A program made the position numbers and the translations under genes. DNA of 64,000 nt. Source: a virus. Lineage: Duplodnaviria > Heunggongvirae > Uroviricota > Caudoviricetes. The notes under the pieces are model-generated. The model did not search any database. It was not told the DNA's origin and worked only from the letters and a program-made list of their open reading frames with translations. Below are positions 6,094 through 58,669 of the stretch, one piece after another. The stretch is from the IMG/VR virus record IMGVR_UViG_3300013307_000673. One strand, given 5' to 3'. Each line of letters starts with the position of its first letter. Position 1 is the stretch's first letter.

Positions 6094-6227
6094 AGGAACT
6101 CCTAAATATTAATATTAATAAAATAAACCGTTATCTTTTAAAGCAAACAAAAGATACTCAGTGAAATCAATTTAGGAGACAAATAAAACCTTGTCAAATA
6201 ATCCAAAATTTCTCGACTTTTTTATTT

Positions 6228-7331: not shown

Positions 7332-7340
7332 TTTATTTCC

Positions 7341-8399: not shown

Positions 8400-8409
8400 A
8401 TTTTAGTCC

Positions 8410-9459: not shown

Positions 9460-9474
9460 TTGCAGTATCCTTAT

Positions 9475-10548: not shown

Positions 10549-10558
10549 TATGAATTCC

Positions 10559-11650: not shown

Positions 11651-11721
11651 AAAAAATCCTCATTTTATCATAGTGTAATAATACTATTTTAGCAGAGGTT
11701 ATGCCAAATTTATTATGTAAA

Positions 11722-11752
11722 CAAAAAAGGCCGCACTGCGGCCTTTATATAA
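11722..11752 (-). terminator. Intrinsic terminator (GGCCGCACTGCGGCC) separating the upstream small gene from the paralog array.
   Basis: Perfect 6-bp GC stem with a T-run on the minus strand. Confidence 0.7.
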
Positions 11753-11764
11753 TTATTTTATTGA

Positions 11765-11956
11765 TTAAGCTGCTCGGACAAATACGGATTGCTCCGGCAC
11801 TTCTTTATTGTCGATAGAATCAATTTCTCCAGACATTAGCAGGCTATTGACAAGACGCCATGCATCTCGATAGGTAGTTTTCACAACGGTATTGCCATTG
11901 TATTTTACCTGATATCCATTACCTTCAGGTGCTCTGTCTAAAACTGCTTGCTTCAT
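11765..11956 (-). CDS. Hypothetical protein, 63 aa.
   Basis: Complete ORF with RBS, followed by a terminator. Confidence 0.45.
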   Translation of the reverse strand: MKQAVLDRAPEGNGYQVKYNGNTVVKTTYRDAWRLVNSLLMSGEIDSIDNKEVPEQSVFVRAA

Positions 11957-21499: not shown

Positions 21500-22123
21500 T
21501 TATTTTCCTGCCTGATATTCCTGCTGGAGCTTTCTTACACGCTCAAGCTCACTTTCTTCATGAACTACACCGCCTGTGTTAAGATCCAGATAGAACTGAA
21601 TCAAGTCACCGTAATCTTTCACATCATAGATCTGGAACAGGAGATGCTTACGGCGCGGCGAGAAGGCTGTTTTAAGCAGTGAAGCCTCATCATATCGCCC
21701 ACCGAAAATCTTAAACTTGCCATCCATGAAATCCACAACGGCAGTTAAACGCTGCAGGCCATCCACACAGAACATATCGTAGCCATGCATTCCCGTCGCC
21801 TCAGCACTGAAATCATGAAACTTGGCGCAGTTAAACTTGATTTCAAGTGGCGCGGTTCCGCGAAGCAAATTTTCAACATATCCAATCTGTTTTTCACGCG
21901 ACCACACATGCCCGCGCTGGAAATCAGGATTTAGGTTAAACACGCCACCATCCAGCTCCGCTTGCTCAGCCTGACGTGCAAGCTCACGTTTTACATTATG
22001 GAGATCGACAGACACACTGTAGTTGCAGGTGCGCATAGGCCGGATAATACGATAAAGCTCGCGCTCTTCTTCACTGAGTCCAGCCCAATGTGAAGGACTA
22101 ACACCAAATTGTTCTTTTTCCAT
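21500..22123 (-). CDS. DUF262 (ParB/sulfiredoxin-fold, GmrSD N-terminal-like) domain protein, about 207 aa.
   Basis: Motifs NPDFQRGHVW and VDGLQRLTAV (the DGQQR signature of DUF262). Start moved to MMEKEQ, which has a GGTGA RBS. The tabled start at 22186 overlaps a TTGCTT-17-TATAAT promoter. Confidence 0.55.
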   Translation of the reverse strand: MEKEQFGVSPSHWAGLSEEERELYRIIRPMRTCNYSVSVDLHNVKRELARQAEQAELDGGVFNLNPDFQRGHVWSREKQIGYVENLLRGTAPLEIKFNCAKFHDFSAEATGMHGYDMFCVDGLQRLTAVVDFMDGKFKIFGGRYDEASLLKTAFSPRRKHLLFQIYDVKDYGDLIQFYLDLNTGGVVHEESELERVRKLQQEYQAGK

Positions 22124-22157
22124 CATAATCACCATAGAGTTCATTAATATGGTTGTC

Positions 22158-22186
22158 ATTATACAGACATCAGAAATCCAAAGCAA
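22158..22186 (-). promoter_or_regulatory. Sigma70-like promoter (TTGCTT-N17-TATAAT) for the DUF262 gene.
   Basis: Hexamers with exact 17-nt spacing immediately downstream of terminator 22188-22212. This implies the real CDS start is downstream of the tabled one. Confidence 0.5.
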
Positions 22187-24433: not shown

Positions 24434-24994
24434 TTAATAAAATGAAAAAACAATCGTTGAGCTTGTTCCCGCAGAGTTACATGCTGTCGCCGCATTTGCT
24501 ACACTCCAGTCAACATTAGATAAATCACTTTTAGCATAACTACCGCCTATGTTAACCATAGACATACTTGGAGCAACTGCTGTTACAAGCTTAACGCAAG
24601 CATCTTGAGGGACGTTGGCATAACTTATATTGAACACAACCTTACCATAGGAAGCATAATTTGTAGCAGACAACTTTACTTTACCTTTAAAACCATTAAC
24701 CACATCTGATACTGTTCCACCACTTTGAACTAACATATTATCAGGAAATATTTGCGCATTTATTCCTACTGTATTATTTACTGTTGTTATATTCGTTGTG
24801 GATGAATATAAAGCCAGTAATCCTGCTCTAATGGTCGCAATATTTTTAGATTCAGCGTCAACTATTTGCGAAGTTCTTACTTTAGGATAAACAATAAAAG
24901 CCGCCACTATTAGCGCCGCTATTATTCCTAAAACCAATAATAACTCTAACAAAGAAAATCCTTTTAACTTTCTATTCCTAATAAAAATCTTCAT
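24434..24994 (-). CDS. Type IV pilin / pseudopilin-like protein, 186 aa.
   Basis: Class III prepilin leader MKIFIRNRKLKG|FSLLELLLVLGIIAALIVAAF, with Gly at -1, Phe at +1 and Glu at +5. C-terminal Cys pair (DACVKL...ATACNS), typical of the pilin disulfide loop. Confidence 0.7.
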   Translation of the reverse strand: MKIFIRNRKLKGFSLLELLLVLGIIAALIVAAFIVYPKVRTSQIVDAESKNIATIRAGLLALYSSTTNITTVNNTVGINAQIFPDNMLVQSGGTVSDVVNGFKGKVKLSATNYASYGKVVFNISYANVPQDACVKLVTAVAPSMSMVNIGGSYAKSDLSNVDWSVANAATACNSAGTSSTIVFSFY

Positions 24995-33321: not shown

Positions 33322-34233
33322 ATGAATATTTTGAAAGATGAGAAAACTAACTTGGGCGCAGCATATCTTGGTGTAATTCTTACGCTTGTTTTCCTTGCTG
33401 TAGCTGTTTATGCAGGCATGAACTGTAAAGTTTTAGTTCAGGAAGCAGGATTCTATGATAGTAAAATCGTAGAAGATTTTTCTGTACCGTATGCTTGCGC
33501 AGCTTTCATTGCGGCATTCTTCTCAGTTATTTCATTCTTAAATAGCTTTATTATCATCTCTCCCAACCAAAAAGTGGTCGCAAGTTTCTTAGGAAAATAC
33601 CGGGGTACACTTACAGGAGAAGGATTCACATTGGTTAACCCTTTCTTCTCCTTTGAAAAAATCAGCACTAAGATTGGCACCTTTGAGACGCAAGAAACCA
33701 AAATCAATGACAAAGAAGGGATTCCTTTGAATGTTTCGATGGTTGTTAACTATCGTGTTGATCAGGCCGCGCCTTTTCATTATAACGCAGAAAAGCCGGA
33801 CGATATTATTCGCAACGCCAGTGAGAGCGAACTGAGAACTATCGTTACACAACACGCTTTTGATAGTGACAAAAATGAAGATGAAACACTCAGTAAAAAT
33901 CTGGATATATTCTCAAGAAACTTGGTTGAACGTATCAACGTGCGCCTGAAAGAGATTGGCGTGATCGTAACCAGCGCTAATATTACTAAAATTTCTTATG
34001 CACCAGAAATCGCTCAATCAATGCTGCAGCGTCAGCAAGCCAAAAAATTGGCTGAAAGTCGTCGTGAAATCGTAGATGCTGCAGTATTAACAGTGAAGGA
34101 CGCTGTTCAAGACATTCAAACTAAGATTGGTGTCACTTTTGATGACACTGAAAAGAAACGCCTTGTAGAAAAACTGATGGTGGTTATCGTTTCCGACAGG
34201 CCTACCACACCTGTTATCTCCCTCGATAACTAA
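33322..34233 (+). CDS. SPFH (stomatin/prohibitin/flotillin/HflKC, band 7) domain membrane protein, 303 aa.
   Basis: N-terminal TM helices, then ISPNQKVVASFLGKYRGTL..GFTLVNPFF..EKISTKIGTFETQ...IPLNVSMVVNYRV, typical of an SPFH core. Coiled-coil C-terminus. Confidence 0.6.
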   Translation: MNILKDEKTNLGAAYLGVILTLVFLAVAVYAGMNCKVLVQEAGFYDSKIVEDFSVPYACAAFIAAFFSVISFLNSFIIISPNQKVVASFLGKYRGTLTGEGFTLVNPFFSFEKISTKIGTFETQETKINDKEGIPLNVSMVVNYRVDQAAPFHYNAEKPDDIIRNASESELRTIVTQHAFDSDKNEDETLSKNLDIFSRNLVERINVRLKEIGVIVTSANITKISYAPEIAQSMLQRQQAKKLAESRREIVDAAVLTVKDAVQDIQTKIGVTFDDTEKKRLVEKLMVVIVSDRPTTPVISLDN

Positions 34234-34380: not shown

Positions 34381-35574
34381 TTACTGGTTTAAGATATGAA
34401 GCTCAATGCTGGTATCAAGACTTTCACCTATTACATCAGCAAGCACATTATAGAAAGATTCGCCATTATCCCATTCTTCTGGAGAGATAATCAGCTTATC
34501 TTTGCCTTCAATAATCTCACAAAGGTAGGCGTATTCTTCATCTTCAATGTCTGAAGTTTCTTCCCATTCAGTTTTAATGTTTGATAGTTTAACTTGCTGC
34601 CATTCTTTAGATTCTTTGCAAAACTCAACGTTTACACCAACATCATCATCTTCCCAATTCACTTTGATACTCTCAACAGCATCAGCAAGGTGGCGTAGAA
34701 AGCTTGCAGTATCCTTAGCTTGACCACCTTGCCCTGAAGTCATAATAGGCCGAATCATAACGTTCTCTACAAGCATTGTCTCAAGTAACCGTTCTGTTTC
34801 GGCTAGGGCGCGGAACACTTCTTCTTCAGCTTTTTCAAAGCCATTATTTTTAGCAAAAGTAATGACTTCTTTATGAACTTTTGATCCGCTTACATTTGAT
34901 ACAGCTTGACCAATAAAGCTAAACTTAATCTTGTTCAAGTTAGTTTTCGCTATACTTTCAAAAGCTATCTTATTAGCAATATCAGTTTGTTGCTCGAAAG
35001 TGATTTTACCAGACTCAACATCTGCTTCCAGTCTTGCTTTATTGATGTCAGCCGCTTCTTTAAATCCCATCATGTTATTATAACAGCTTAACACTTCCTT
35101 GATTTTGGCATCAATTGTTTCTTTTGAGTGAATCATTACCTGATAAACGGATTCATGGATAGCAAAGGCCGCAACAAAACACTTCTCCCCTTGAAAATCC
35201 TTAAGGAACAATCTCCCACTGCGAACCATATCCTGAATCTTCTGCCATGTTAAATCTTTTACATTTACATCCATATGATCATGACAATCGTTATATTCTT
35301 CGCCCTCTATAGAGATATTCTCTGAATATTCTTGTTTAATATAATTTTGAATATACTTGGCAAACAAAGAATCTTCGTCAAAATCATAATTATTGAAATC
35401 AGCATATTCTGCAGGAATAGCTCCACCGCCAATAATCTTAAAGTTATCCCAGGGATAGCATTCACCACCTTTACCAATTACCTGACCTTCAGATACAACA
35501 TAAAATAAGCGCACCTTATTTCCTTCACGGATTGGCGCACGGCTGACAGCACACGTTGTATTAAACGATCCCAT
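34381..35574 (-). CDS. Hypothetical protein, about 397 aa, starting at MGSFNTT.
   Basis: A GAGGGT RBS precedes the ATG at 35574. The tabled start at 35586 lies inside that RBS. Confidence 0.5.
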   Translation of the reverse strand: MGSFNTTCAVSRAPIREGNKVRLFYVVSEGQVIGKGGECYPWDNFKIIGGGAIPAEYADFNNYDFDEDSLFAKYIQNYIKQEYSENISIEGEEYNDCHDHMDVNVKDLTWQKIQDMVRSGRLFLKDFQGEKCFVAAFAIHESVYQVMIHSKETIDAKIKEVLSCYNNMMGFKEAADINKARLEADVESGKITFEQQTDIANKIAFESIAKTNLNKIKFSFIGQAVSNVSGSKVHKEVITFAKNNGFEKAEEEVFRALAETERLLETMLVENVMIRPIMTSGQGGQAKDTASFLRHLADAVESIKVNWEDDDVGVNVEFCKESKEWQQVKLSNIKTEWEETSDIEDEEYAYLCEIIEGKDKLIISPEEWDNGESFYNVLADVIGESLDTSIELHILNQ

Positions 35575-35716
35575 TTTTACCCTCATTAGTTATAAAATAT
35601 CACCGTCATTTTACGCTAAAGGCATTTTATAAGCAAGAAAAATCAATTTTACTCGTTTTTTATGTATAAAAAAAGCGCCATGAAAGGCGCTTATTATTTC
35701 TAAAACATTTATTGAT

Positions 35717-36712
35717 TTAAATGTGACAGTCAACCGCTGTTAACAGCGTATCTTCAGGAAGACCACGCAGCATCTCGTAGAACTCATCGTTCCAGTCGTT
35801 CTGAGCTTTTTCATCCATCGCCATACCAAACCAGCCCATTTGTCCCTTTTCAGACCATACACCATCCTTCAGGAAAGCAAACGGCGTGATGATTGATTTA
35901 CGCTGTCTCTCAACATATTCCTCACGGCTATTGCCAAAGATTTCATAAAAATCACCCCAAAAATCAAAACGAGCTTCATTAAAATCCTTAACAACCGGAT
36001 GATTATGATATTCATTTCTTGCTGCATCAATATCCGCACCATGCTTTTCCCTGATCTCTGTCCATGACGGATATTGACGGCCTTTCAAAATAGACTCAAT
36101 CTTATCATAGGTTGCGTTTGCCTCAGCAATAGCCTCAGCCTCCATACCTTCAAAGTCAATATCTTTCAAACGGATAACATCATAGCGACCTGCCTCAGCA
36201 GCTTCCGTCATCAGACCAGGACGGCCTTGTTCTCCACCCACACCCGGTTTACCTTTAAAATATCCTGTCCAGCGACCGCCTACCTGATACCAATCCCATT
36301 TTGCGTTAGGGTTATGCCAATATCCATAAGCATTAAGTTCTTCTGAATATCCATAGCCACAATAATCTCTAAGATAGCTTTCAAATGTTGGATAGAGTTC
36401 TGAAACCGCACCCTCATAAAGTCTAGCACCTTCAGGAAGTTCAAGCACTGTCTCACCGAAAGGTGAACTCTCGCTTTTGATAGACTTTTCAAATCTGCGA
36501 ACAACATCATCAGAACGATGGTATTTTACACCATCCAGCTCAACGATTTGCGTAGTTTTGTTTTTGTAATCCTTTTGCTCTTGAGAAGACTCACTCTTAT
36601 TTTCGAATTCAAAATAAGGCGAGCTTTCGGGATGAGATGACTGCTCCTCGAAAGGCGCTAAAGCCTCTTCAAGATTAACATCACCAGCAACAATAACGGT
36701 AAAATGCGACAT
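35717..36712 (-). CDS. Hypothetical protein, 331 aa. Larger paralog sharing its C-terminal domain with 32689..33183.
   Basis: Shared C-terminal about 60 aa ending ...AVDCHI. Antisense ORFs are rejected. Confidence 0.5.
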   Translation of the reverse strand: MSHFTVIVAGDVNLEEALAPFEEQSSHPESSPYFEFENKSESSQEQKDYKNKTTQIVELDGVKYHRSDDVVRRFEKSIKSESSPFGETVLELPEGARLYEGAVSELYPTFESYLRDYCGYGYSEELNAYGYWHNPNAKWDWYQVGGRWTGYFKGKPGVGGEQGRPGLMTEAAEAGRYDVIRLKDIDFEGMEAEAIAEANATYDKIESILKGRQYPSWTEIREKHGADIDAARNEYHNHPVVKDFNEARFDFWGDFYEIFGNSREEYVERQRKSIITPFAFLKDGVWSEKGQMGWFGMAMDEKAQNDWNDEFYEMLRGLPEDTLLTAVDCHI

Positions 36713-38326: not shown

Positions 38327-39391
38327 ATGAAACACATAAGAGATATTTCTGTTAGGGCTGTTGCTTCATCGGTATTATTTATTTTTTCATTTTATGCATT
38401 TATTCCTTTTGTATTTTATTTAACCGGAGATATATCAACATCTCTGATATTATTTTCCGCTATTCCTTTTCTGCTATTACCTGCATCACTTTTTATTCGG
38501 CATTACATTACGGTTAATCTGATTAACCCATTATCCTTATTACGTAAAGATATTCATAACCTCAGCAACAAAGACTTCTGTAAGAGCGCATTTTGCTCTC
38601 CTGATCTTGATGTAGTCAGAGAAATGTTAAGCCAATGGGCAACTCAGCAGCAGGAAGCCTCACAGCGTCTTAATGACAGTCTTATCTCACTGGATAAAGG
38701 TAATCTCGCGCTACTCTCCAGAAATGAAACACAGAGCCGCGCTGTTGAGAAAACCGCATATAATGTCAATGAGCTTTATCAGGTCGCCTCACACAACGAA
38801 CAGGAGTCCAATCAGGCCTTTTCATTGGCTTCTATGACACTTGCTGGTGTTCAGGAGGCCATAGAGAATGTTTCACTTATGACAAACTCTACAAGCACTA
38901 TAAAGGACCAGTCTTTGGAGATTAAAAAGATATCAGACTTTATCAGTGAGATGGCCTTTAAAACAAACTTACTTTCATTGAACGCCTCAATTGAAGCCGC
39001 AAGAGCGGGCGATCATGGCAGAGGCTTTTCTGTTGTAGCCAATGAAGTGAGATTGCTGGCTAAAAGTTGTGCTGATTCCGCTCAGGAAATCAAGGCGCTT
39101 GTGAATGATACCTCCTCTCAAATAGAAGATACATTCAAACTGAATAATAAAAACGCGGCTTATATCCATGAAATGCTTACGATGATAGAGAGAACTAATG
39201 TGGCGCTTTCTACGATTAGCACATCATCCAAAGAACAACGCATGAAAATAGAATGTATGAAGAACTCTATTGATAATATTATTATGGCGGTTTACGAAAA
39301 TACAACTTACTCCGAGGAAACTGCTAAGATATTAAACAATATTCGACATGATCTTGATGATATTGAAAAGGAGCATAAAAAGGCCGCATAA
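38327..39391 (+). CDS. Methyl-accepting chemotaxis protein (MCP) signalling-domain protein, 354 aa, with an N-terminal two-helix membrane hairpin and no periplasmic sensor.
   Basis: Near-perfect MCP highly-conserved-domain signature FKTNLLSLNASIEAARAGDHGRGFSVVANEVRLLA. Two adjacent TM helices at residues 10-58. Confidence 0.75.
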   Translation: MKHIRDISVRAVASSVLFIFSFYAFIPFVFYLTGDISTSLILFSAIPFLLLPASLFIRHYITVNLINPLSLLRKDIHNLSNKDFCKSAFCSPDLDVVREMLSQWATQQQEASQRLNDSLISLDKGNLALLSRNETQSRAVEKTAYNVNELYQVASHNEQESNQAFSLASMTLAGVQEAIENVSLMTNSTSTIKDQSLEIKKISDFISEMAFKTNLLSLNASIEAARAGDHGRGFSVVANEVRLLAKSCADSAQEIKALVNDTSSQIEDTFKLNNKNAAYIHEMLTMIERTNVALSTISTSSKEQRMKIECMKNSIDNIIMAVYENTTYSEETAKILNNIRHDLDDIEKEHKKAA

Positions 39392-44390: not shown

Positions 44391-44473
44391 AGTATAAAGA
44401 GTGTTTGGGGCACTCTTTAACTTATTACTTTACATCTTTAACCATAAACTAAGCAAAGGGATCAAGCTTTGCT

Positions 44474-44549
44474 GGTGGCCCCTGCTGGACTCGAACCAGC
44501 GACCAAGCGATTATGAGTCGCGTGCTCTAACCAACTGAGCTAAGGGGCC
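44474..44549 (-). tRNA. ileX: tRNA-Ile2/Met (anticodon CAT), near-identical to E. coli ileX.
   Basis: GGCCCCTTAGCTCAGTTGGTTAGAGCACGCGACTCATAATCGCTTGGTCGCTGGTTCGAGTCCAGCAGGGGCCACCA, about three differences from the E. coli tRNA-Ile2(LAU) as I recall it. Confidence 0.75.
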
Positions 44550-47722: not shown

Positions 47723-47905
47723 TTATTTAGAACGTTGATGGGCTGGAAGACGAGACAGAGCCTGATCGCGACGGTCTTTAGCCCAATACTCTTCACCATA
47801 CGTTTTCGCCTTTACAGACTCTTCTGAATAGCGATCATAGATTTTCTGCTCTTCTACCGTGCGGCGAGGACCATAATCTCCAGTTCCTTCATAAAACATA
47901 CACAC
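47723..47905 (-). CDS. Hypothetical protein, 60 aa.
   Basis: Complete ORF immediately upstream of 46994..47713 (9-nt gap). Confidence 0.4.
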   Translation of the reverse strand: MCMFYEGTGDYGPRRTVEEQKIYDRYSEESVKAKTYGEEYWAKDRRDQALSRLPAHQRSK

Positions 47906-47930: not shown

Positions 47931-48071
47931 TTATTTTGAGCGCAGTTTCTCAAGTGCTGTATCACGACGAACTTGCGCACGGATTTCGTCTCCGTAGCTT
48001 TTAGAATCAGCAACATCTTTCTGATATTGCTCGTTCACTTCTTTTTCAGTCATTACTTTATTATCCGACAT
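47931..48071 (-). CDS. Small protein (46 aa, MSDNKVMTEKEVNEQYQKDVADSKSYGDEIRAQVRRDTALEKLRSK).
   Basis: Not in the ORF table. Strong AAGAGGA RBS 8 nt before the ATG. Confidence 0.4.
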   Translation of the reverse strand: MSDNKVMTEKEVNEQYQKDVADSKSYGDEIRAQVRRDTALEKLRSK

Positions 48072-48108
48072 GTTAAATCCTCTTTTATTTGGTTTCACCC
48101 TACAGGGC

Positions 48109-48334: not shown

Positions 48335-48835
48335 TCAGATAAGCTTTTCATCTAATATATTATAAACATCTGAAATGTTTATAGTATATCGCTTAGTTAT
48401 TTCGTAATTCCCATAATAACCGCTATCAGTGCGTGTGTTACGCTCCATTTTTTCAAAAACATACTGAACCAACTCATCTATCTGCTTATCATTCCTTTTA
48501 GGAAGCATCGCTGATAATAATATACGAATGGCTTTTTTTACCAGTGAGATTTTTTCTTCGTAATACTTTGGCTCATCCATATCGTCAGACCAGCAAGAAC
48601 CCGACCATTGCTCTTCAATCAACATAGACACACATAAATACTCATCATTCATAAAAAATGAGTAATGATTTTTACGAAAGAAGTTATCACTGTCTGAGCC
48701 TCTCAGATAGTCAGCCTGTTTCTGCACAATCGCTTTAACTTTCGACACGTCTTTATTGATTAACAACATGATTTTCATTCCTAAAAGTAAGATTGCAGTG
48801 ATTATACCGACAATATTGATGTAAAGCAAGCACAA
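48335..48835 (-). CDS. Hypothetical protein, 166 aa, with an N-terminal TM helix.
   Basis: Complete ORF. N-terminal hydrophobic segment VGIITAILLLGMKIMLLI. Confidence 0.5.
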   Translation of the reverse strand: MCLLYINIVGIITAILLLGMKIMLLINKDVSKVKAIVQKQADYLRGSDSDNFFRKNHYSFFMNDEYLCVSMLIEEQWSGSCWSDDMDEPKYYEEKISLVKKAIRILLSAMLPKRNDKQIDELVQYVFEKMERNTRTDSGYYGNYEITKRYTINISDVYNILDEKLI

Positions 48836-48858
48836 AAAAGCCTCCGAAGAGGCTTAGT
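48833..48858 (-). terminator. Intrinsic terminator (AGCCTC-CGAA-GAGGCT) downstream of the peptidase gene. The same sequence occurs at 25722-25740.
   Basis: 6-bp GC stem with a T-run on the minus strand. Confidence 0.65.
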
Positions 48859-48865
48859 CTATATC

Positions 48866-50770
48866 TTATCTCTTCAGGAAATACTTCTCAAACAACTCAA
48901 TCTGCTGAGTCAGGAAGTCTTCCTGATATTCAATCACCACATCATCACCTTTTGGCGTCAGAATCGGCGTCATGAAGCCTACCACTGTAGCCAATCCTAA
49001 GCCACTCACACGCTCTAACACCTCTTTATGAACCAACTGATTAACTTTGGTGCCATAGGTCTCTACGAGGGCTTTAGCTGCGTTAAAATCGCCTTCTGAT
49101 TTAATACGCTGAATCTCTGCCAGCAACTGACCGACCAGAGCGCGAACACCATCAAGATCATTAACCTCAATGAAATACTGACCCTCTTTCACAACCATCG
49201 CCATCTGCTCAGGCTTTGCTTTCTCAAGCAACCATGTAGAGATAATCTGGCGGTTTCTGAAGTGAGCTTGCGTCAGATCAGCACCCAAACGCACCCGGCG
49301 CAACTGACCAATAGCACCATTAGTGAAATATGCCACGTATTTAGCCATTGCTGCATCGCGAACATTGACATCCTCAGCAAAAATACCAATCTCTTTTAGC
49401 TTCTCATCAGGGATATAATAAAGCGCAACCAGATCAGCACGACATTCCTCAATTACTGAGTAATACGTGGACAGAACATCACTGTTAACGCCGTCCAGCA
49501 CCTTGCCTGATCCATGACCAGCAATCTCATGTAAGTCCGTATGAAGAACGCCTGTCTCATTGCCATAACGCTTAATCAGATCCTGATATTTATCCAGATA
49601 CAAGGCTTTGGTTAATGGCACATCATAGCTACTACGTGAGGAATCCACGTTAGACAACGTAACGGATTTAGAACCAAACTTTTTACGAATCCAGTCGCTG
49701 TTAGGCAAGTTAATCCCTAAAGGCAGCACAGGAGAGGTTTCTCCAGCCATAGAAATAACATTGATAGAACTCGCAGATAGCCCTACAGCCTTATCTTTCT
49801 TAAAGCGCTTATCAAACGGGAGATTATCCTCAAACCACTGGATATTATCAATGATACGCTTCACTTTAGCTGTCTGTGCTGGATTTTTAAACGCAACCAA
49901 ACTCTCAAAGTTACACGCCACACCTAGCGGATCTTTATAAGATTCAATCAAGCCATTTACGAAATAAATCGAACTATCCTGATCTTGCGTCCACGCTACA
50001 CAGTGCTTATCAAAATCAGCAGCATCACCCGTCTCATAGAAGGTAATCAGTGTCTCAATAGAGGCATGTTGTTTTTCATTTTCAGTGTAGTTCAGAGCAA
50101 GCTTAAGCTCTTTAATGATTTCTTTAACATAGCGACCATAAAGACCATCAGCGAAGATGACTTCTCGTTTAATCTCACCCGTGAGATGATTTTTTAGGAG
50201 TTTCTCGTTAAATCCGTAAGGTGGAATCTCATCATTATCATGTTTCGGGTAGGCTTCTTTGCGAAAAGCAATTACTTCCTCGGTGGTAAGGCCAGCATAG
50301 AAGTTAACACCAGACTGCTTAACCACATCTACGCCGTCTTTTTGAACGGTGCGGTATAAAGGTAGATTATAGGTATCGTTCTCAAAAAGAAATATTTCAA
50401 TCGATAAGGCAGCTAATGAACAGTAAACATTAGAACACAATACATCAAATTGCTCACTATCCAGAGGCAGTGTCAGTTTTTCACCTGTTGTGGTATGATA
50501 AAGACCACCGTGCGCAAAGAGCATAAATAAACTATCACGAACCTGCTTAAAAGCTTCAGTTTCTTTATCAAGATGTTTATACATATGGATTAGTGCAGGA
50601 ATAACGATAAGGTTAGCGCTTGATCCCTGAGTCAGCCCGATCACTTTCCCCCACATACCCGCTTCTGACAGATGATAAGCCAGACGTTTAGTGCGGCTAT
50701 CGAGTGATGAGAAGCCTTCAGTGTCCAGCTTTACGATTGCAATATCATTAAGACGTTCAGAATATGTCAT
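48866..50770 (-). CDS. Dipeptidyl-peptidase III-like zinc metallopeptidase (M49 family), 634 aa.
   Basis: M49 signature motifs HEIAGHGSGK (HExxGH) and IEECRADLVALYY (EECRAE/D) at the expected spacing. Full-length, comparable to cellular DPP III. Confidence 0.7.
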   Translation of the reverse strand: MTYSERLNDIAIVKLDTEGFSSLDSRTKRLAYHLSEAGMWGKVIGLTQGSSANLIVIPALIHMYKHLDKETEAFKQVRDSLFMLFAHGGLYHTTTGEKLTLPLDSEQFDVLCSNVYCSLAALSIEIFLFENDTYNLPLYRTVQKDGVDVVKQSGVNFYAGLTTEEVIAFRKEAYPKHDNDEIPPYGFNEKLLKNHLTGEIKREVIFADGLYGRYVKEIIKELKLALNYTENEKQHASIETLITFYETGDAADFDKHCVAWTQDQDSSIYFVNGLIESYKDPLGVACNFESLVAFKNPAQTAKVKRIIDNIQWFEDNLPFDKRFKKDKAVGLSASSINVISMAGETSPVLPLGINLPNSDWIRKKFGSKSVTLSNVDSSRSSYDVPLTKALYLDKYQDLIKRYGNETGVLHTDLHEIAGHGSGKVLDGVNSDVLSTYYSVIEECRADLVALYYIPDEKLKEIGIFAEDVNVRDAAMAKYVAYFTNGAIGQLRRVRLGADLTQAHFRNRQIISTWLLEKAKPEQMAMVVKEGQYFIEVNDLDGVRALVGQLLAEIQRIKSEGDFNAAKALVETYGTKVNQLVHKEVLERVSGLGLATVVGFMTPILTPKGDDVVIEYQEDFLTQQIELFEKYFLKR

Positions 50771-50976
50771 AGTATCTCCTTTAAAAGTGCGTATACTTTA
50801 TCATGTTTTCCAATGGATTAAAACATTTTTCATCAAACTAATCTTGTTTAAGTTTACCTTATAGGACTTGTCTTAAATCATTATCAAATCTTAACATTAC
50901 TCTTTTAAATGCATTTACATTTTTCATAAATTTGATACTATTTTTATACACTTAAACTACTTTTAAAAGGACAAAT

Positions 50977-52148: not shown

Positions 52149-52273
52149 ATTTATTCTCCATCGATTATTTACGCTCTATATCATTATGCTTTTCAAATAG
52201 CAAATCTATATAGTTGTCAATTTGATTTACCCCCTGCTAAATGATACAGTTTAGAAAAATAAAGGAGATTACA

Positions 52274-53233
52274 ATGTTTAGTCTAACTGATGTTATGCGT
52301 GTATTCGATAACCGCGCCAGAGAGTTTGCTGGTCTGAGAGAAGATCAGATTTTTATGTTTGATGCGAGCGCTGAAGAAATCATTAAAAGAAGCCAAAAAA
52401 GAACGCTATGGGGATTGGGAAAGCCCGAAACTCTTGATTTTAAAGTGAGAACAACCAGTGGGTTTACACCGTTTTCTAAAACCGATGAGTTAGCCAAAAT
52501 CAAACTCTTTATAGAAAATGGCGCTGATATTAATAAAGTTGACATCTATGGCGAAAATGCTCTTTTCAACCAAAGCTACAGCATTGAAAACACTATTTAT
52601 TTATTAGAAAAAGGCATTAACGTTAATCAGCGGAATACAAAAGGCGAAAATGTTCTTGATAATCTTCACTTTCACCATGATTATGATGAAGCTATAGCTG
52701 AGCTTTATATAAAATATGGCATCGACTACCATCATGTTAATCCCAAGACTCAACGTAATGGTTTATTTACTTTAGACCATCAAAAAGGCTTATTTTTAGT
52801 TAAAAATGGAATCAATATTCATCAGATTGATTCGTATGGTCGCAATATGCTTTTTTATTTAGATAGCAACGAAAAAGACGGAAGCCTTCAGCTATTAACT
52901 GAGCTTATCAAACAAGGGATTAATATTAATCAAGTCGATCAATGGGGGCGCAATGCTTTATTTGAATCAGGCTCTGATATTAAAAAAGCCCGATTACTTC
53001 TTGAGGCAGGAATAAATGTTAATCAAGTTGATGAAAAAGGGAATAGTGCATTAGAATATACTTATTGGGAAGATAATGAAAAACTTTTATTCTCTTATGG
53101 CATTAAAGATAGAGAATATAAAAAGGAAGGCATGTTCACAAAAGAAAGAATGAGATTTGCAATGAGAAATCACAGACAGGACAACTGGAGTGCTCTTTTT
53201 AAGTCATCTCCAAAATTAAGTTATGAAGTGTAA
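52274..53233 (+). CDS. Ankyrin-repeat protein, about 319 aa, with at least five ANK repeats.
   Basis: Repeated G(A/I)(D/N)(I/V)N..(D/N)..G.NALF/LxYL blocks (GADINKVDIYGENALF, GINVNQRNTKGENVL, GINIHQIDSYGRNMLFY, GININQVDQWGRNALFE, GINVNQVDEKGNSALEY). Start moved to the ATG at 52274 (AAGGAG RBS). Confidence 0.65.
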   Translation: MFSLTDVMRVFDNRAREFAGLREDQIFMFDASAEEIIKRSQKRTLWGLGKPETLDFKVRTTSGFTPFSKTDELAKIKLFIENGADINKVDIYGENALFNQSYSIENTIYLLEKGINVNQRNTKGENVLDNLHFHHDYDEAIAELYIKYGIDYHHVNPKTQRNGLFTLDHQKGLFLVKNGINIHQIDSYGRNMLFYLDSNEKDGSLQLLTELIKQGININQVDQWGRNALFESGSDIKKARLLLEAGINVNQVDEKGNSALEYTYWEDNEKLLFSYGIKDREYKKEGMFTKERMRFAMRNHRQDNWSALFKSSPKLSYEV

Positions 53234-53698: not shown

Positions 53699-53828
53699 AT
53701 AGTCTTATCAGGTTAGGTGTTGTATCGGCCCACCTCTTAAACGATAATAGGAAAGTCTGGTTTCGCTCCAAACGTGCTATTACCTTTCACATCCACTCAC
53801 GTTGTCGGACGCAACCTAATAAAACAGG

Positions 53829-53903
53829 TGATTTCTGCAGGACTCGAACCTACGTCGTCAGCGGATTCTCCCGCCAATGCTCTACCCGTTGAGCTAAAAA
53901 ATC
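53829..53903 (-). tRNA. Aberrant tRNA-like gene. Acceptor, D-arm and T-arm are canonical, but the anticodon arm is a tight GCGGG-AGAA-TCCGC hairpin (or an 8-nt loop GGAGAATC). No CCA encoded.
   Basis: GATTTTTTAGCTCAACGGGTAGAGCATTGGCGGGAGAATCCGCTGACGACGTAGGTTCGAGTCCTGCAGAAATCACC. No 7-nt anticodon loop can be drawn. Confidence 0.4.
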
Positions 53904-56271: not shown

Positions 56272-56607
56272 TTAATGAATAATATTTAAGCCGATAACAT
56301 GACAATCGCAACCGCAAAGCTCATGCTCAACGTTATCTACGATCACCTTATAAATATAATCAAACTCTCTATCAATATCTTTGATTAAATGAATGGCATT
56401 TCCTTGTAGCGTTTTGATGCCACCATCAACAAAAATATATTTTCCTTCACCAAAGATGAAATCCATTGCTTCTTTTTTGGAGTAAGGCACTTTCTCAGTT
56501 AAGGCCTGATAGTTTCCTTTTCCAAAAATTTTATCCAGCCCTTCTTCAGAAAGCTCTTTATTTTCAGCTATATATTTCATACCTGATAAATCACAACATT
56601 CTCTCAT
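56272..56607 (-). CDS. Cys-rich zinc-ribbon family protein, paralog 2 (111 aa).
   Basis: N-terminal CC, EGLDKIFGKGNY, and C-terminal CGCDCHVIGLNIIH. Confidence 0.55.
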   Translation of the reverse strand: MRECCDLSGMKYIAENKELSEEGLDKIFGKGNYQALTEKVPYSKKEAMDFIFGEGKYIFVDGGIKTLQGNAIHLIKDIDREFDYIYKVIVDNVEHELCGCDCHVIGLNIIH

Positions 56608-56622
56608 TCTTATTTTCTCTTC

Positions 56623-57000
56623 TTAGTGATCCATATTACAGCCTATAACATGACAATCGCAATCGCAAAGTGTAATTTCTTTATCCTGAGTTTTAACTTT
56701 GTAAGTATAGATATACTTTCTTTCAAAAATCTCTCTTTGAAAATGTTTTATATCCACCATTAAAACCTCACCTTGCCGCATTACAACCTGTCTCACCAGA
56801 ATTCCATTTGGTGTTTTTCTTAAATATTCAAAACCTTCACCGAACCATTTATCCACAGTCTCTTTATAGTTCTGAAATTTTTTTTCGATAGTTAACTCGT
56901 AGTTATCTTCTCCAAAGATTTTATCTAACGCTTCTCTGGAGAGATCGCCTTCTTCAATAATATAATGACCGTAATTTTTTTCACAACAAGAATCAACCAT
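56623..57000 (-). CDS. Cys-rich zinc-ribbon family protein, paralog 1 (about 125 aa, start at MVDSCCEKNY).
   Basis: AAGGA RBS before the ATG at 57000. Contains CC, EALDKIFGEDNY, and C-terminal CDCDCHVIGCNMDH. Confidence 0.55.
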   Translation of the reverse strand: MVDSCCEKNYGHYIIEEGDLSREALDKIFGEDNYELTIEKKFQNYKETVDKWFGEGFEYLRKTPNGILVRQVVMRQGEVLMVDIKHFQREIFERKYIYTYKVKTQDKEITLCDCDCHVIGCNMDH

Positions 57001-57100
57001 AATAAAATCCTTATCCAATAATAAGTTTTCATTATAACCTGCAAAAACCACAAAAACAAAAAAAAGCACTCTTGCGAATGCTTCTTTTTTAACTCACATC

Positions 57101-57907
57101 TTAACTATTATGGACAGCAAACGCCCGGTTGAAAAGCTCATCATGCTCAGCACTTAGTTCCTCATCTAACCAGAAAGGACGATAGCCTTTTCCTTCCTCT
57201 TCAAGCACCACATTCAGGGCGCGGATGTGGTCAAGATACTCTTCCATACAATGAGCAAAGACTTTACGAATATTTGGATTGTTCTCTTGTGTCGGATCAG
57301 AAAGCATACGTTTATACTTATCCATGCCTTCCAGATAGAATTTTGATGTAGTGCAGCTCATCTTCATTTTACGACCAAAGCCAAACGCATAGTTGCGGCT
57401 CGTCGCATAGCCGATATGATCACCTGTCCGGTGAGGAGCAACACCACCCGTTTTGATTTCTCCTTTCTCAGTATAGAACACTACTGATGGATTCGCTTTT
57501 ACCAGAGGATTATTCACATCCGCAAAGCCAAAGAATAAATAAGAACGCAGACCCTCAATCAGAGCTGGGACCTCAAGGAACATGACCTCTGAAATGATAT
57601 TGCTATTCGAGAGATCACTGAAAACGCGAAGCTGATTGTTTCTCATTAAATCGTTCAGACTTTGTGAGTTTAAAAACGCCAGTTCTGGCTCGCCGTAGAA
57701 GCGATCTGATTCTGGTAAAATAATCTCTTCGGAAAAATGAATGCTTTTGATGCTATCATCACTGTTTCCAGTAATCGTTAAAAATCCTTTCGCACAATCA
57801 GGAATAGACAGCGCCGAAGTAAAATGGCCTATAATAACCGTTTTGCTCTGTTTTAACACAGCAGGATCAACAAAGAATAGCTCAACTTGCTTTTCGATTT
57901 TCATCAT
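57101..57907 (-). CDS. Hypothetical protein, 268 aa.
   Basis: Complete ORF. Terminator 57060-57090 downstream. Confidence 0.55.
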   Translation of the reverse strand: MMKIEKQVELFFVDPAVLKQSKTVIIGHFTSALSIPDCAKGFLTITGNSDDSIKSIHFSEEIILPESDRFYGEPELAFLNSQSLNDLMRNNQLRVFSDLSNSNIISEVMFLEVPALIEGLRSYLFFGFADVNNPLVKANPSVVFYTEKGEIKTGGVAPHRTGDHIGYATSRNYAFGFGRKMKMSCTTSKFYLEGMDKYKRMLSDPTQENNPNIRKVFAHCMEEYLDHIRALNVVLEEEGKGYRPFWLDEELSAEHDELFNRAFAVHNS

Positions 57908-57968: not shown

Positions 57969-58286
57969 TTAAACTGTTTTTTCTTCATCAATCCAGCTTA
58001 GCCCATCCTCAGCATTCACGCCATCAATAAGAGCTTTGAGGAACTTATCTTCCTTCTCCTTTGAATCCGCATTGCAAGGCCATTCCATTCCAGTCAGCTT
58101 CTGTGCAAGAATCTCCTGGAACATCTCACGTTCAGCAGTATCAATACCATTGATTTCAATCATGCTTTGCTTCACGTATGTTCCATCCAGAAGCGTGTTT
58201 AAAAAACCTTCGGTCGCACGAACACCAATTTTAGCAAGACGGTTATTCAGATCAGCAATCAGTTTGGCAGGCAGTTTTTCGCTCAT
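57969..58286 (-). CDS. Hypothetical protein, 105 aa. Paralog of 58364..58669.
   Basis: Shares ...(L/I)TGM(E/K)WP...D(S/T)KEK...F(L/F)(K/T)ALI..V.(A/E)(E/D) with its neighbour. Confidence 0.5.
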   Translation of the reverse strand: MSEKLPAKLIADLNNRLAKIGVRATEGFLNTLLDGTYVKQSMIEINGIDTAEREMFQEILAQKLTGMEWPCNADSKEKEDKFLKALIDGVNAEDGLSWIDEEKTV

Positions 58287-58363: not shown

Positions 58364-58669
58364 TTAGTTAATCCAGATCAAGTCTTTATCTTCATCTACA
58401 GCCTTAATTAAAGCAGTGAAGAACACTTCCGCTTTTTCTTTGGTATCTTTATCGGAAGGCCATTTCATCCCGGTAATCTTTTCAGCAATCGCATTACAGA
58501 ACACACCTGCGCTATACGCATCCATCATGGTTTTCTTAACACCTTCTTCAGAAAACAGGCCGTTAATGTAATCTGGTGTGGCGCGAAAATGCAATACTTT
58601 AAGCTGACTATTAAGATTATCAATCAGTTCGTTAGACAGGGCAGCATTCATCATCGATTCTCTTTTCAT
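58364..58669 (-). CDS. Hypothetical protein, 101 aa. Paralog of 57969..58286.
   Basis: Tandem paralog pair. The antisense ORF 58036..58314 is rejected. Confidence 0.5.
   Translation of the reverse strand: MKRESMMNAALSNELIDNLNSQLKVLHFRATPDYINGLFSEEGVKKTMMDAYSAGVFCNAIAEKITGMKWPSDKDTKEKAEVFFTALIKAVDEDKDLIWIN

What the first reader, a model, noticed from the sequence alone, without database searches (positions are those of the whole stretch)
48866..50770. Full-length dipeptidyl-peptidase III (M49) homologue in a phage context
The protein carries both M49 zinc-binding signatures at canonical spacing: HEIAGHGSGK (compare human HELLGHGSGK) and EECRAD. It is as long as cellular DPP III (634 aa). M49 peptidases are cytosolic oligopeptide-trimming enzymes, and finding one inside a virulent-phage accessory region is unusual. 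It could process host or phage peptides, such as signalling peptides or toxin or antitoxin peptides, or it could be a recent host acquisition.
Basis: partly seen in the sequence, partly recalled or inferred. Interest (0 to 1): 0.55.

Follow-up and report, generated by a model that had tools for sequence, protein, structure and literature searches.

The report
Jumbo-phage dipeptidyl-peptidase III gene
A lineage of very large bacteriophages carries an intact, well-conserved copy of a zinc enzyme that clips two amino acids at a time off short peptides; the enzyme looks ordinary, but it is very rare in viruses and its role in infection is unknown.

Summary
Window 48866-50770 (minus strand) is a 634-aa ORF and a full-length M49 dipeptidyl-peptidase III: Pfam PF03571 at 191 bits, end-to-end match to Bacteroides thetaiotaomicron DPP III (5NA7, E~1e-125), and an AF2 model that fits its closed form at TM 0.92. 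All five M49 signature regions, the zinc ligands (H414, H419, E442), the catalytic E415 and the key substrate-anchoring residues are present.

The setting is a jumbo phage: 12 tRNAs, strand-biased small ORFs, distant homologues in GAP32/CBB/KVP40-type phages, and near-identical IMG/VR and ENA contigs of 259-294 kb.

It is not a recent pickup. At least four related phage lineages (69-98% identity) carry it, three of them inside a shared gene block. Its dN/dS is 0.05-0.10 and its GC3 matches each resident genome. The phage clade nests inside a signal-peptide-less DPP III family from uncultured, AT-rich, ankyrin-rich Pseudomonadota, not Bacteroidota.

I found no credible M49 in PHROGs, BFVD or 50,697 deposited phage genomes.

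Most likely it is an active cytoplasmic peptide trimmer, probably for amino-acid salvage. That role is inferred. It is a new member of a known enzyme family, in a setting new for that family; interest is moderate.

The parts
48866..50770 (-). Coding sequence of the 634-aa M49 dipeptidyl-peptidase III homologue. It has no signal peptide.
   Evidence: ORF list; Pfam PF03571 at 191 bits; PDB 5na7 E~1e-125 over the full length; AF2 model pLDDT 89.4, TM 0.92 to 5na8; N-terminus compared with Bacteroidota lipoprotein signals.
49895..49954 (-). M49 conserved region 1 (GLIESYKDPLGVACNFESLV, residues 273-292). It holds E276 and Y278, the equivalents of BtDPP III E307 and Y309 that contact the substrate.
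   Evidence: Regions defined in PMC5667867; coordinates verified; E276 and Y278 invariant in 62 sequences.
49646..49717 (-). M49 conserved region 2 (GINLPNSDWIRKKFGSKSVTLSNV, residues 352-375). It holds G352, N354 and N357 (= Bt G383, N385, N388), the strand that docks the substrate.
49499..49531 (-). M49 region 3, the first zinc motif HEIAGHGSGKV (residues 414-424). H414 and H419 are zinc ligands and E415 is the catalytic base.
   Evidence: Aligned to Bt H448, E449, H453; invariant in 62 sequences; HEIAGH in 117 of 121 family members.
49433..49450 (-). M49 region 4, the second zinc motif EECRAD (residues 441-446). E442 is the third zinc ligand (= Bt E476).
   Evidence: The motif starts 21 residues after the end of HEXXGH, as in BtDPP III.
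49241..49270 (-). M49 region 5 (QAHFRNRQII, residues 501-510). H503 equals Bt H533, which the paper lists among the residues equivalent to human substrate-contact residues.
50776..50782 (-). Shine-Dalgarno sequence AAAGGAG, 5 nt upstream of the ATG. It is conserved in all four aligned phage loci.
   Evidence: Sequence; alignment A3 shows TAAAGGAG invariant; coordinates verified.
50795..50803 (-). Possible extended -10 element TGATAAAGT. Similar TGnTAwAkT elements sit at the same place in L003 and L086. This is inferred only.
   Evidence: Alignment A3. The consensus scan also flags TTTAAA-18-GATAAT at 50909-50880, but promoter-like sites are not enriched over shuffles.
48826..48858 (-). Terminator-like hairpin AAGCCTCTTCGGAGGCTT followed by TTTTTGTG, beginning 8 nt after the stop codon. 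It makes the gene a self-contained unit.
   Evidence: Terminator scan; sequence verified.

Best explanation
The gene encodes an active, cytoplasmic, zinc-dependent dipeptidyl-peptidase III of the short bacterial type, carried by a lineage of jumbo phages.

Enzyme mechanism, inferred by homology to BtDPP III and human DPP III: the protein is a two-lobe clamshell. An oligopeptide with a free N-terminus docks as a beta-strand on the lower lobe (residues 349-357, with E276, Y278, N354 and N357 contacting it). The lobes then close. Zinc held by H414, H419 and E442, with water activated by E415, cuts the second peptide bond and releases a dipeptide. H503 also lines the site. D431, the equivalent of the S2 determinant Bt D465 / human D496, predicts a retained preference for Arg-Arg-type substrates.

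Origin: an ancestor of this phage group took the gene once from a family of AT-rich, ankyrin-rich, probably host-associated Pseudomonadota, and the phages have kept it under strong purifying selection.

Expression: it appears to be a monocistronic unit with its own ribosome-binding site and terminator.

Role, inferred at about 50% among the roles considered: it pushes peptide fragments in the infected cell on to dipeptides, which feeds amino-acid pools for a very large virion and proteome. If the host is an enterobacterium, as several clues suggest, the host probably has no M49 enzyme of its own (my knowledge of peptidase inventories). The phage would then add an activity rather than boost an existing one.
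For: Identity and fold: Pfam PF03571 E=3.9e-56; 5na7 E~1e-125 over residues 5-628; AF2 pLDDT 89.4 and pTM 0.88; Foldseek 5na8 TM 0.92, rmsd 2.5 A.

Catalytic competence: all five M49 regions are present, and the Zn and catalytic residues plus E276, Y278, G352, N354, N357 and H503 are invariant across 62 aligned sequences.

Cytoplasmic location: there is no signal peptide, whereas Bacteroidota homologues carry lipoprotein signals.

Maintained function: dN/dS is 0.075 (window vs L001), 0.09-0.10 (window vs L003/L086) and 0.05 (L003 vs L086). GC3 tracks each genome, 0.40 against 0.18. Only 1 of 634 positions is fixed specifically in the phage clade, and it lies outside the active site.

Phage setting: 12 tRNAs; homologues in GAP32/CBB/BF/KVP40 phages; PHROG hits; IMG/VR contigs of 259 kb and 342 kb; 14-18 collinear shared genes with L003, L086 and L096, and 4-5 with L097.

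Single origin: in the NJ tree the phage clade has bootstrap 93, rising to 100 with P0013/15/16. It nests inside the low-GC family, which is separated from Bacteroidota at 100.

Cellular relatives: they sit on contigs of 0.17-2.2 Mb with LuxR, HD-GYP, rhomboid, CysS and Shine-Dalgarno motifs. The best named CysS hits are Gamma- and Betaproteobacteria at 43-46%.

Expression unit.

Host clues: a 98%-identical copy was binned with a Serratia MAG from a Serratia + Stenotrophomonas co-culture. The phage pilin hits only Enterobacterales plasmids. A phage tRNA is 94-99% identical to E. coli tRNA-Ile. There is no DNA-level M49 relative in 5,426 E. coli genomes.
Against: No activity, metal-binding or expression data exist. 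The salvage role is inferred only from what DPP III enzymes generally do. No peptidase, transporter or amino-acid-metabolism partner lies nearby. Three substrate-contact equivalents differ from BtDPP III (L349, L351 and V596 for T380, I382 and Y627), so specificity may differ in detail. The host is not established. If the host were one of the AT-rich bacteria, it would already have its own copy. No capsid, terminase or other hallmark phage gene lies in the window, so the phage assignment rests on context and on related contigs. Only eight of the cellular-type contexts were inspected. L091, L092 and L093 are short, ORFan-rich contigs that could themselves be mobile elements. E. coli was searched only at DNA level, so the absence of M49 from enterobacteria rests on my knowledge, not on a protein search.
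Confidence: 0.8

Rival explanations
1. Targeted peptide destruction. The enzyme is kept because it removes one particular short linear peptide, not because it salvages peptides in bulk. Candidates are a host defence or toxin-antitoxin-linked signal, a quorum or communication peptide, or an inhibitory peptide produced during infection.
For: DPP III enzymes cut bioactive peptides of about 3-10 residues (abstracts of PMC4824452 and PMC5667867). The gene lies in an accessory region rich in host-interaction-type genes: ankyrin, MCP-domain, pilin, SPFH and GmrSD-like. If the host is an enterobacterium it probably lacks this activity (my knowledge; one search is only a DNA-level negative).
Against: No candidate peptide gene or defence-related partner is linked to it. 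The phage enzyme has no clade-specific changes in its substrate-binding regions compared with its bacterial relatives. The neighbours immediately next to it are not conserved between phage lineages.
Confidence: 0.2
2. Recent, functionally neutral passenger. The gene was picked up lately from the host and is not (yet) used by the phage.
For: Jumbo-phage accessory regions do accumulate host-derived genes. The gene is a self-contained unit.
Against: It is shared by at least four diverged phage lineages, and in three of them it sits in a conserved gene order. dS is saturated between lineages while dN/dS is 0.05-0.10. GC3 is ameliorated to each genome. At 74% identity it is among the best-conserved genes of the shared block.
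Confidence: 0.04
3. Not phage-encoded. The window and its relatives are bacterial chromosome or plasmid segments, or mis-binned contigs, and the M49 gene is an ordinary cellular housekeeping gene.
For: No capsid, terminase or other hallmark gene was found in the 64-kb window. A 98% copy is deposited as a Serratia MAG protein. Cluster members sit on contigs of up to 866 kb.
Against: There are 12 tRNA genes scattered among small, nearly all same-strand ORFs. Several PHROG families are hit, and there are homologues in GAP32, CBB, BF and KVP40 jumbo phages. Two IMG/VR viral contigs carry it. GC is 38%, against my own figure of about 59% for Serratia. No housekeeping gene was found. The Serratia record is a MAG bin from a co-culture.
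Confidence: 0.04
4. Moonlighting or non-catalytic use. The protein is kept as a binding or regulatory factor, as human DPP III binds Keap1, and peptidase activity is incidental.
For: Human DPP III has such a second role (PMC5667867).
Against: The loop with the ETGE motif that mediates the human role is absent from bacterial-type enzymes, which have the short 21-residue spacer. All catalytic and zinc residues are invariant across the phage clade.
Confidence: 0.04

Closest known systems
Bacteroides thetaiotaomicron DPP III (BtDPP III; PDB 5NA6, 5NA7, 5NA8; PMC5667867)
   Same: Full-length alignment (E~1e-125). Two-lobe fold, TM 0.92 to the closed form. HEXXGH and EEXRAD motifs with the identical 21-residue spacer. 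All five M49 regions. Zn ligands, catalytic Glu, and the equivalents of E307, Y309, G383, N385, N388, D465 and H533.
   Different: Only 37-38% identity in the structural alignment. The phage protein has no N-terminal signal peptide, whereas the Bacteroidota homologues examined start with lipoprotein-type signals. L349, L351 and V596 replace T380, I382 and Y627. It is encoded by a phage rather than a gut bacterium.
Signal-less DPP III family of uncultured AT-rich Pseudomonadota (for example P0032 on a 2.2-Mb contig, P0062 on a 1.9-Mb contig, P0031 next to CysS)
   Same: 55-67% identity and about the same length (624-640 aa). No signal peptide. Same motif variants (HEIAGH; EE[ACTS]RAD). The phage clade nests inside this family, and only one position is fixed specifically in phages.
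   Different: These genes sit in cellular genomes, in non-syntenic regions rich in ORFans, ankyrin genes and integrases. No other gene of the window is shared with them, apart from ankyrin-type and pilin-type matches.
Human and yeast DPP III (PDB 3FVY, 3T6B, 3CSK)
   Same: Same family and fold (TM 0.80-0.82 to the closed human complexes). Same hexapeptide zinc motif; human EECRAE compares with EECRAD here.
   Different: About 21% identity. The eukaryotic enzymes are roughly 100 residues longer, with a ~30-residue insert between the zinc motifs that carries the Keap1-binding ETGE motif in vertebrates.
Short bacterial DPP III with pentapeptide motif (Caldithrix abyssi 6EOM, HEISH; Corallococcus 5ZUM, HELMH)
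   Same: M49 fold and exopeptidase chemistry.
   Different: Those enzymes have HEXXH rather than HEXXGH, are 520-570 aa long and share about 20% identity. The phage enzyme belongs to the classical hexapeptide type.
Host-derived auxiliary metabolic genes of large phages, such as cyanophage peptide deformylase (my own knowledge, not tested here)
   Same: A cellular enzyme of protein or peptide metabolism, taken up by a phage, kept under purifying selection and fitted to the phage's own composition.
   Different: I found no M49 enzyme described in any phage: no PHROG, no BFVD structure, no credible hit among 50,697 phage records and no paper.

Membership tests
Peptidase family M49 (dipeptidyl-peptidase III) | Hexapeptide zinc-binding motif HEXXGH | tested here: met
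   HEIAGH at residues 414-419. It aligns to Bt H448-H453 and is invariant in H, E, G and H across 62 sequences.
Peptidase family M49 (dipeptidyl-peptidase III) | Second motif EEXR(K)AE(D), 22-55 residues C-terminal of the first | tested here: met
   EECRAD at 441-446. E441 is 22 positions after H419 (21 residues between the motifs), exactly as in BtDPP III.
Peptidase family M49 (dipeptidyl-peptidase III) | All five conserved sequence regions R1-R5 | tested here: met
   R1 273-292, R2 352-375, R3 414-424, R4 441-446 and R5 501-510, matched to the regions listed in PMC5667867.
Peptidase family M49 (dipeptidyl-peptidase III) | Profile-HMM membership above the curated threshold | tested here: met
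   PF03571 at 191 bits against a gathering cut-off of 21, E=3.9e-56. No NCBIfam model matched.
Peptidase family M49 (dipeptidyl-peptidase III) | Two-lobe fold with a beta-barrel core in the lower lobe and a helical, zinc-bearing upper lobe | tested here: met
   AF2 model pLDDT 89.4. Foldseek gives TM 0.92 and rmsd 2.5 A to 5na8, and every hit with E<1e-20 is a DPP III. This is a predicted model, not an experimental structure.
Peptidase family M49 (dipeptidyl-peptidase III) | One zinc ion bound, and release of N-terminal dipeptides (for example from Arg-Arg-2-naphthylamide) | not testable with these tools
   This needs purified protein. It is predicted from conserved ligands and from D431 (= Bt D465, the S2 determinant).
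Phage auxiliary (host-derived) metabolic gene | Gene of cellular origin, nested phylogenetically within cellular homologues | tested here: met
   The phage clade nests inside the low-GC bacterial family (bootstrap 93, 100 and 100 for the relevant splits). The trees are NJ only, and only eight cellular-type contexts were verified.
Phage auxiliary (host-derived) metabolic gene | Residence in a genuine phage genome, conserved across related phages | tested here: met
   IMG/VR contigs of 259 and 342 kb, tRNA arrays, PHROG and jumbo-phage homologues, and shared genes across four lineages. No hallmark structural gene lies inside the window itself.
Phage auxiliary (host-derived) metabolic gene | Expressed during infection and changing host metabolism | not testable with these tools
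   Only sequence signals are available: a conserved SD, a possible -10 element and a terminator.

The most novel reading that the evidence does not exclude
The phage DPP III is not a bulk salvage enzyme. It is a counter-measure that destroys a specific short linear peptide in the infected cell, for example a peptide signal that potentiates toxin-antitoxin or abortive-infection responses, or a communication peptide of competing phages. It would give an enterobacterial host, which probably has no M49 enzyme, an activity the host cannot supply. That would make it a peptide-degrading anti-defence or signal-quenching enzyme in phages, a class I know no example of.
Probability: 0.1. Interest if true: 0.7.

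Novelty: new member of a known kind. Interest (0 to 1): 0.35.

Why it matters
If the enzyme is active, this would be the first credible virus-encoded M49 peptidase I could find. It shows that a lineage of jumbo phages has kept a peptide-trimming enzyme under selection long enough for synonymous sites to saturate. That implies oligopeptide turnover matters for these infections, and the idea can be tested with a knockout and peptidomics. The work also uncovers a previously unremarked cytoplasmic, signal-less DPP III subfamily in uncultured, AT-rich, ankyrin-rich Pseudomonadota. For M49 enzymologists, the phage protein is a compact 634-aa classical-motif homologue only 37-38% identical to the one characterised bacterial structure of this type.

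Tried and rejected
1. Megablast of the region against 50,697 phage records found nothing. tblastn of a clade-conserved neighbour (57101-57907) against phages also found nothing. No cultured close relative was identified.

2. PHROGs and NCBIfam gave no hit for the protein.

It missed the 55-67% relatives.

4. Attempts to name the bacterial carriers mostly failed. Exact-sequence cluster look-ups of DPP III and of ten neighbouring proteins returned no organism names. A homology search with an RNB-domain neighbour hit only unnamed, very divergent proteins. A paper search for sample and assembly accessions found nothing. Only CysS gave a coarse placement: Gamma- and Betaproteobacteria at 43-46%.

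5. AFDB50 was not available for fold search.

6. I considered that the ORFan-rich, ankyrin-rich, low-GC contigs might be giant viruses. I rejected this because Shine-Dalgarno motifs precede 32-80% of their genes against 4-7% background, and because bacterial-type regulators and CysS are present.

7. I considered MT836480 ('Bacteriophage sp.') as a second phage M49. I rejected it: it is an UNVERIFIED 10-kb scaffold with GC 50% and a copy 65-69% identical to Bacteroidales enzymes. The two GVMAG contigs are small bins with Bacteroidota-like copies.

8. The 393-kb E. coli 'plasmid' with the best pilin hit is an ordinary conjugative plasmid, not a related phage.

9. I looked for functional partners (peptidases, transporters) among about 50 window ORFs and found none.

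10. I looked for phage-specific active-site substitutions and found none.
Full report
OBSERVATION

The ORF is exactly as described: window 48866-50770 on the minus strand, ATG to TAA, 634 aa. HEIAGHGSGK begins at residue 414 and EECRAD at residue 441, with 21 residues between the motifs. Pfam-A gives PF03571 (Peptidase_M49) at E=3.9e-56, 191 bits against a gathering cut-off of 21. A sequence search of the PDB gives an end-to-end match to Bacteroides thetaiotaomicron DPP III (5na7 and 5na6, E~1e-125, query residues 5-628). Weaker partial matches go to human, yeast, Caldithrix, Corallococcus and Armillariella DPP III.

STRUCTURE AND ACTIVE SITE

An AlphaFold2 model built on a 49-sequence alignment is confident (mean pLDDT 89.4, pTM 0.88). 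[quoted passage not shown] Every hit with E<1e-20 is a DPP III.

The BtDPP III structure paper (PMC5667867) defines five M49 signature regions and lists the zinc ligands (H448, H453, E476), the essential E449, and ten residues equivalent to the substrate contacts of human DPP III. All five regions are present in the phage protein: R1 273-292, R2 352-375, R3 414-424, R4 441-446 and R5 501-510.

H414, E415, H419, E442, E276, Y278, G352, N354, N357 and H503 are invariant across 62 aligned phage, low-GC-bacterial and Bacteroidota sequences. D431, the equivalent of the S2 determinant D465, is kept in all phage copies. L349, L351 and V596 replace T380, I382 and Y627.

The 21-residue spacer between the zinc motifs is the short bacterial type. 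The vertebrate loop with the Keap1-binding ETGE motif is absent. The phage protein starts directly at the mature domain, whereas the Bacteroidota homologues examined begin with lipoprotein-type signal peptides. The phage enzyme should therefore act in the cytoplasm.

IS THE SETTING A PHAGE?

The window has GC of about 38% and a uniformly negative GC skew. Nearly all its ORFs are on the minus strand, most are small, and 12 tRNA genes are scattered among them. Most ORFs have no Pfam or PHROG match. Several do hit PHROG families of unknown function.

Two ORFs (34381-35586 and 35717-36712) have 31-35% homologues in jumbo myoviruses of Enterobacterales, Vibrio and Aeromonas: GAP32, CBB, Serratia phage BF and KVP40. 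A 98%-identical copy of the M49 gene with the same neighbours and the same tRNAs lies on IMG/VR contig UViG_3300031087_000527 (259 kb) and on a 294-kb ENA contig.

No hallmark structural gene lies in the window. The phage assignment therefore rests on this context and is an inference, though I consider it a strong one. 'Virulent' cannot be tested here. I found no integrase among about 50 ORFs scanned.

HOW OLD IS THE GENE IN PHAGES?

The gene is shared by at least four phage lineages:
- the window type (98% copies);
- L003/L086, which includes a 342-kb IMG/VR contig (74%);
- L096 (P0003, 74-75%);
- L097 (P0013, 69%).

The first three share 14-18 other genes with the window in the same order. 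L097 shares 4-5. At 74%, DPP III is among the best-conserved genes of the shared block, whose neighbours are 38-76% identical.

Nei-Gojobori estimates give dN/dS of 0.075 (window vs L001), 0.09-0.10 (window vs L003/L086, with dS of 2.1-2.3, i.e. saturated) and 0.05 (L003 vs L086). GC3 of the gene follows each resident genome: 0.40 in the 38%-GC window phage and 0.18 in the 31%-GC lineage. This shows long residence under strong purifying selection. It is not a recent pickup.

WHERE DID IT COME FROM?

Of 7,841 database relatives, the best 120 (at least 53% identity) form one family, well separated from the classical Bacteroidota DPP III. The species-genome scan returned only the latter, at 37-41%.

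In a Bacteroidota-rooted NJ tree the phage sequences form one clade. Bootstrap support is 93 for the core clade, 100 when P0013, P0015 and P0016 are included, and 100 for the whole low-GC family against the outgroup. The phage clade nests inside that family.

I inspected eight contexts of the 55-67% relatives. They are non-syntenic, very AT-rich (25-35% GC) and rich in ORFans, ankyrin genes and integrases. They sit on contigs of up to 1.9 and 2.2 Mb, with a LuxR-type regulator, HD-GYP, rhomboid, a DotM-like domain and CysS nearby. Shine-Dalgarno motifs precede 32-80% of their genes, against 4-7% background, so they are prokaryotic and not giant viruses.

In one genus the DPP III-CysS linkage appears conserved: 82-84% CysS copies lie on contigs of exactly the same lengths (8,861 and 9,818 bp) as those carrying DPP III P0025 and P0024. 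The best named CysS relatives are Gamma- and Betaproteobacteria at only 43-46%. I therefore describe the carriers as uncultured, fast-evolving, probably host-associated Pseudomonadota. I could not name them.

Transfer from bacterium to phage, once, is the most parsimonious reading. The phage lineage also shares ankyrin-type and type IVb-pilin-type genes with these bacteria, at 32-50%.

LIKELY HOST

Three independent clues point to Enterobacterales:
- A member of the 98% cluster is WP_282994823.1 from 'Serratia sp. Se-RSBMAAmG'. This is a MAG binned from a laboratory co-culture of weevil-gut Serratia and Stenotrophomonas.
- The window's PilS-type pilin (24434-24994) hits only Enterobacterales plasmids in PLSDB, at 40-52%. 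That database is heavily biased towards enterobacteria.
- The tRNA at 44473-44549, which ARAGORN calls Met(CAT), is 94-99% identical to the chromosomal tRNA-Ile of 5,133 of 5,426 E. coli genomes.

No E. coli genome has a DNA-level relative of the M49 gene. From my knowledge of peptidase inventories, E. coli has no M49 enzyme. If the host is enterobacterial, the phage supplies an activity the host lacks. This is inference and the host remains unproven.

EXPRESSION UNIT

The gene is preceded by AAAGGAG, 5 nt before the ATG, and this is invariant in all four aligned phage loci. A TGnTAwAkT element that could be an extended -10 lies just upstream. A GC-rich hairpin followed by a T-run starts 8 nt after the stop codon. 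The upstream neighbour is divergently transcribed, and neither immediate neighbour is conserved between lineages. The gene therefore looks monocistronic. Promoter-like matches in the region are no more frequent than in shuffled sequence, so the promoter call is weak.

WHAT IT MOST LIKELY DOES

Shown here: family membership, an intact catalytic apparatus, absence of a signal peptide, purifying selection, and the phage setting.

Inferred by homology: zinc-dependent removal of N-terminal dipeptides from oligopeptides by clamshell closure.

Inferred without direct support: the biological role. The most economical reading is completion of peptide breakdown in the infected cell to feed amino-acid pools. 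Only one position is fixed specifically in the phage clade, and it lies outside all five regions. This argues against a re-tooled specificity, so it favours an ordinary DPP III activity.

A targeted role, destroying a particular signalling or defence-related peptide, is not excluded. It has no positive support: no linked peptide, defence gene or partner was found.

HOW UNUSUAL IS IT?

- No PHROG family matches.
- No BFVD viral structure resembles the model; the best E-value is 0.58.
- Among 50,697 deposited phage records the only tblastn hit is MT836480. This is an UNVERIFIED 10-kb faecal scaffold with GC 50% whose copy is 65-69% identical to Bacteroidales enzymes, so it is almost certainly a bacterial fragment.
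- IMG/VR yields only the two jumbo-phage contigs, plus two small giant-virus-bin contigs with Bacteroidota-like copies.
- Full-text searches found no paper on a phage DPP III.

The enzyme itself is a conventional M49 member. What is new is where it sits and the subfamily it belongs to.

VERDICT

The core interpretation is supported. The 'recent acquisition' alternative is rejected. The enzyme mechanism rests on homology, and the physiological role remains open. It is a new member of a known kind, and interest is moderate (0.35).

Noticed in passing
window 53827-53903 (-); also L001/L002 6875-6951 and L003 5894-5970: A tRNA-like gene with an 8-nucleotide anticodon loop. ARAGORN reads the anticodon as 'agaa'; the related phage L003 has 'aggg' at the same place. 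It lies between tRNA-Arg and tRNA-Phe and is conserved across phage lineages. It could be a quadruplet-decoding (+1 frameshift suppressor) tRNA.
   Followed up: partly
L003 2707-2781 and L085 4981-5055: Amber-suppressor-type tRNAs (anticodon CTA, called 'Pyl' by ARAGORN). One is in the related 31%-GC phage. The other is in the 1.9-Mb AT-rich bacterial contig, a few kb from its DPP III gene.
   Followed up: no
window 44473-44549 (-): The tRNA that ARAGORN calls Met(CAT) is 94-99% identical over 84 bp to the chromosomal tRNA-Ile of 5,133 of 5,426 complete E. coli genomes. It is probably a lysidine-type tRNA-Ile2 taken from an enterobacterial host, which makes it a host clue.
   Followed up: partly
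window 6228-11650 (-): Five tandem paralogous genes of 349-367 aa, 23-45% identical pairwise. The three tested have no Pfam match, and the one tested has no PHROG match. This looks like an expanding gene family in the phage accessory region.
   Followed up: partly
window 38327-39391 (+): A phage-encoded protein with a methyl-accepting chemotaxis protein signalling domain (PF00015, E=1.2e-33; phrog_8572). It lies on the minority strand.
   Followed up: partly
window 24434-24994 (-); L003 15872-16435 and 16801-17346; L096 10086-10631; L093 11934-12182: Type IVb (PilS/bundlin-type) prepilin genes in the phages. They are 40-52% identical to thin-pilus pilins of Enterobacterales conjugative plasmids and 50% identical to a gene next to DPP III in an AT-rich bacterial contig.
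   Followed up: partly
window 52241-53233 (+), 33322-34233 (+), 21500-22186 (-), 947-1687 (-), 1743-2921 (-): Other host-interaction-type genes in the window: an ankyrin-repeat protein (67% conserved in the sister phage lineage), an SPFH/Band-7 protein, a GmrSD_N-like protein, a polysaccharide deacetylase and a PcfJ-like protein.
   Followed up: no
window 47723-47905 / 47931-48098; 56272-56607 / 56623-57069; 57969-58286 / 58364-58669 (all -): Three pairs of adjacent small paralogous ORFs, 33-38% identical. All have counterparts in the related phages.
   Followed up: partly
L093 9313-9909, immediately upstream of its DPP III gene at 10001-11884: A NUDIX hydrolase gene sits directly upstream of DPP III on the same strand in one AT-rich bacterial contig. 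The Caldithrix DPP III entry 6EOM is labelled 'MutT/NUDIX family protein', and plant M49 enzymes are fused to NUDIX domains (my own knowledge). This may be a recurring M49-NUDIX association.
   Followed up: no
clusters of P0001: Near-identical copies of the phage gene sit on contigs of 131, 259, 260, 294, 458, 553 and 866 kb. The true genome size is unclear. It may be about 259-294 kb with concatemeric or chimeric assemblies, or it may be much larger.
   Followed up: no
NCBI WP_282994823.1 / MDI6977100.1 (Serratia sp. Se-RSBMAAmG), 131-kb contig: A jumbo-phage contig appears to be binned into a Serratia MAG. A 2026 study reports this 'species' as a gut biomarker of stereotypic behaviour in giant pandas (PMC13600500). 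Part of that signal could come from phage genes unique to the MAG rather than from Serratia. This is speculation.
   Followed up: no
L094 (MT836480.1) 5785-7686: The only M49 hit in the deposited-phage collection is an UNVERIFIED, unannotated 10-kb 'Bacteriophage sp.' scaffold from human faeces. Its GC is 50% and its gene is 65-69% identical to Bacteroidales DPP III, so it is probably a bacterial fragment in a virome.
   Followed up: yes
PLSDB hits H52, H53, H56: On three Bacteroidota plasmid or secondary-replicon records, the stretch matching DPP III over 98-99% of its length is annotated 'dihydrofolate reductase'. This is probably either a mis-annotation or an incomplete gene table in which only an overlapping or neighbouring gene is listed.
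   Followed up: no
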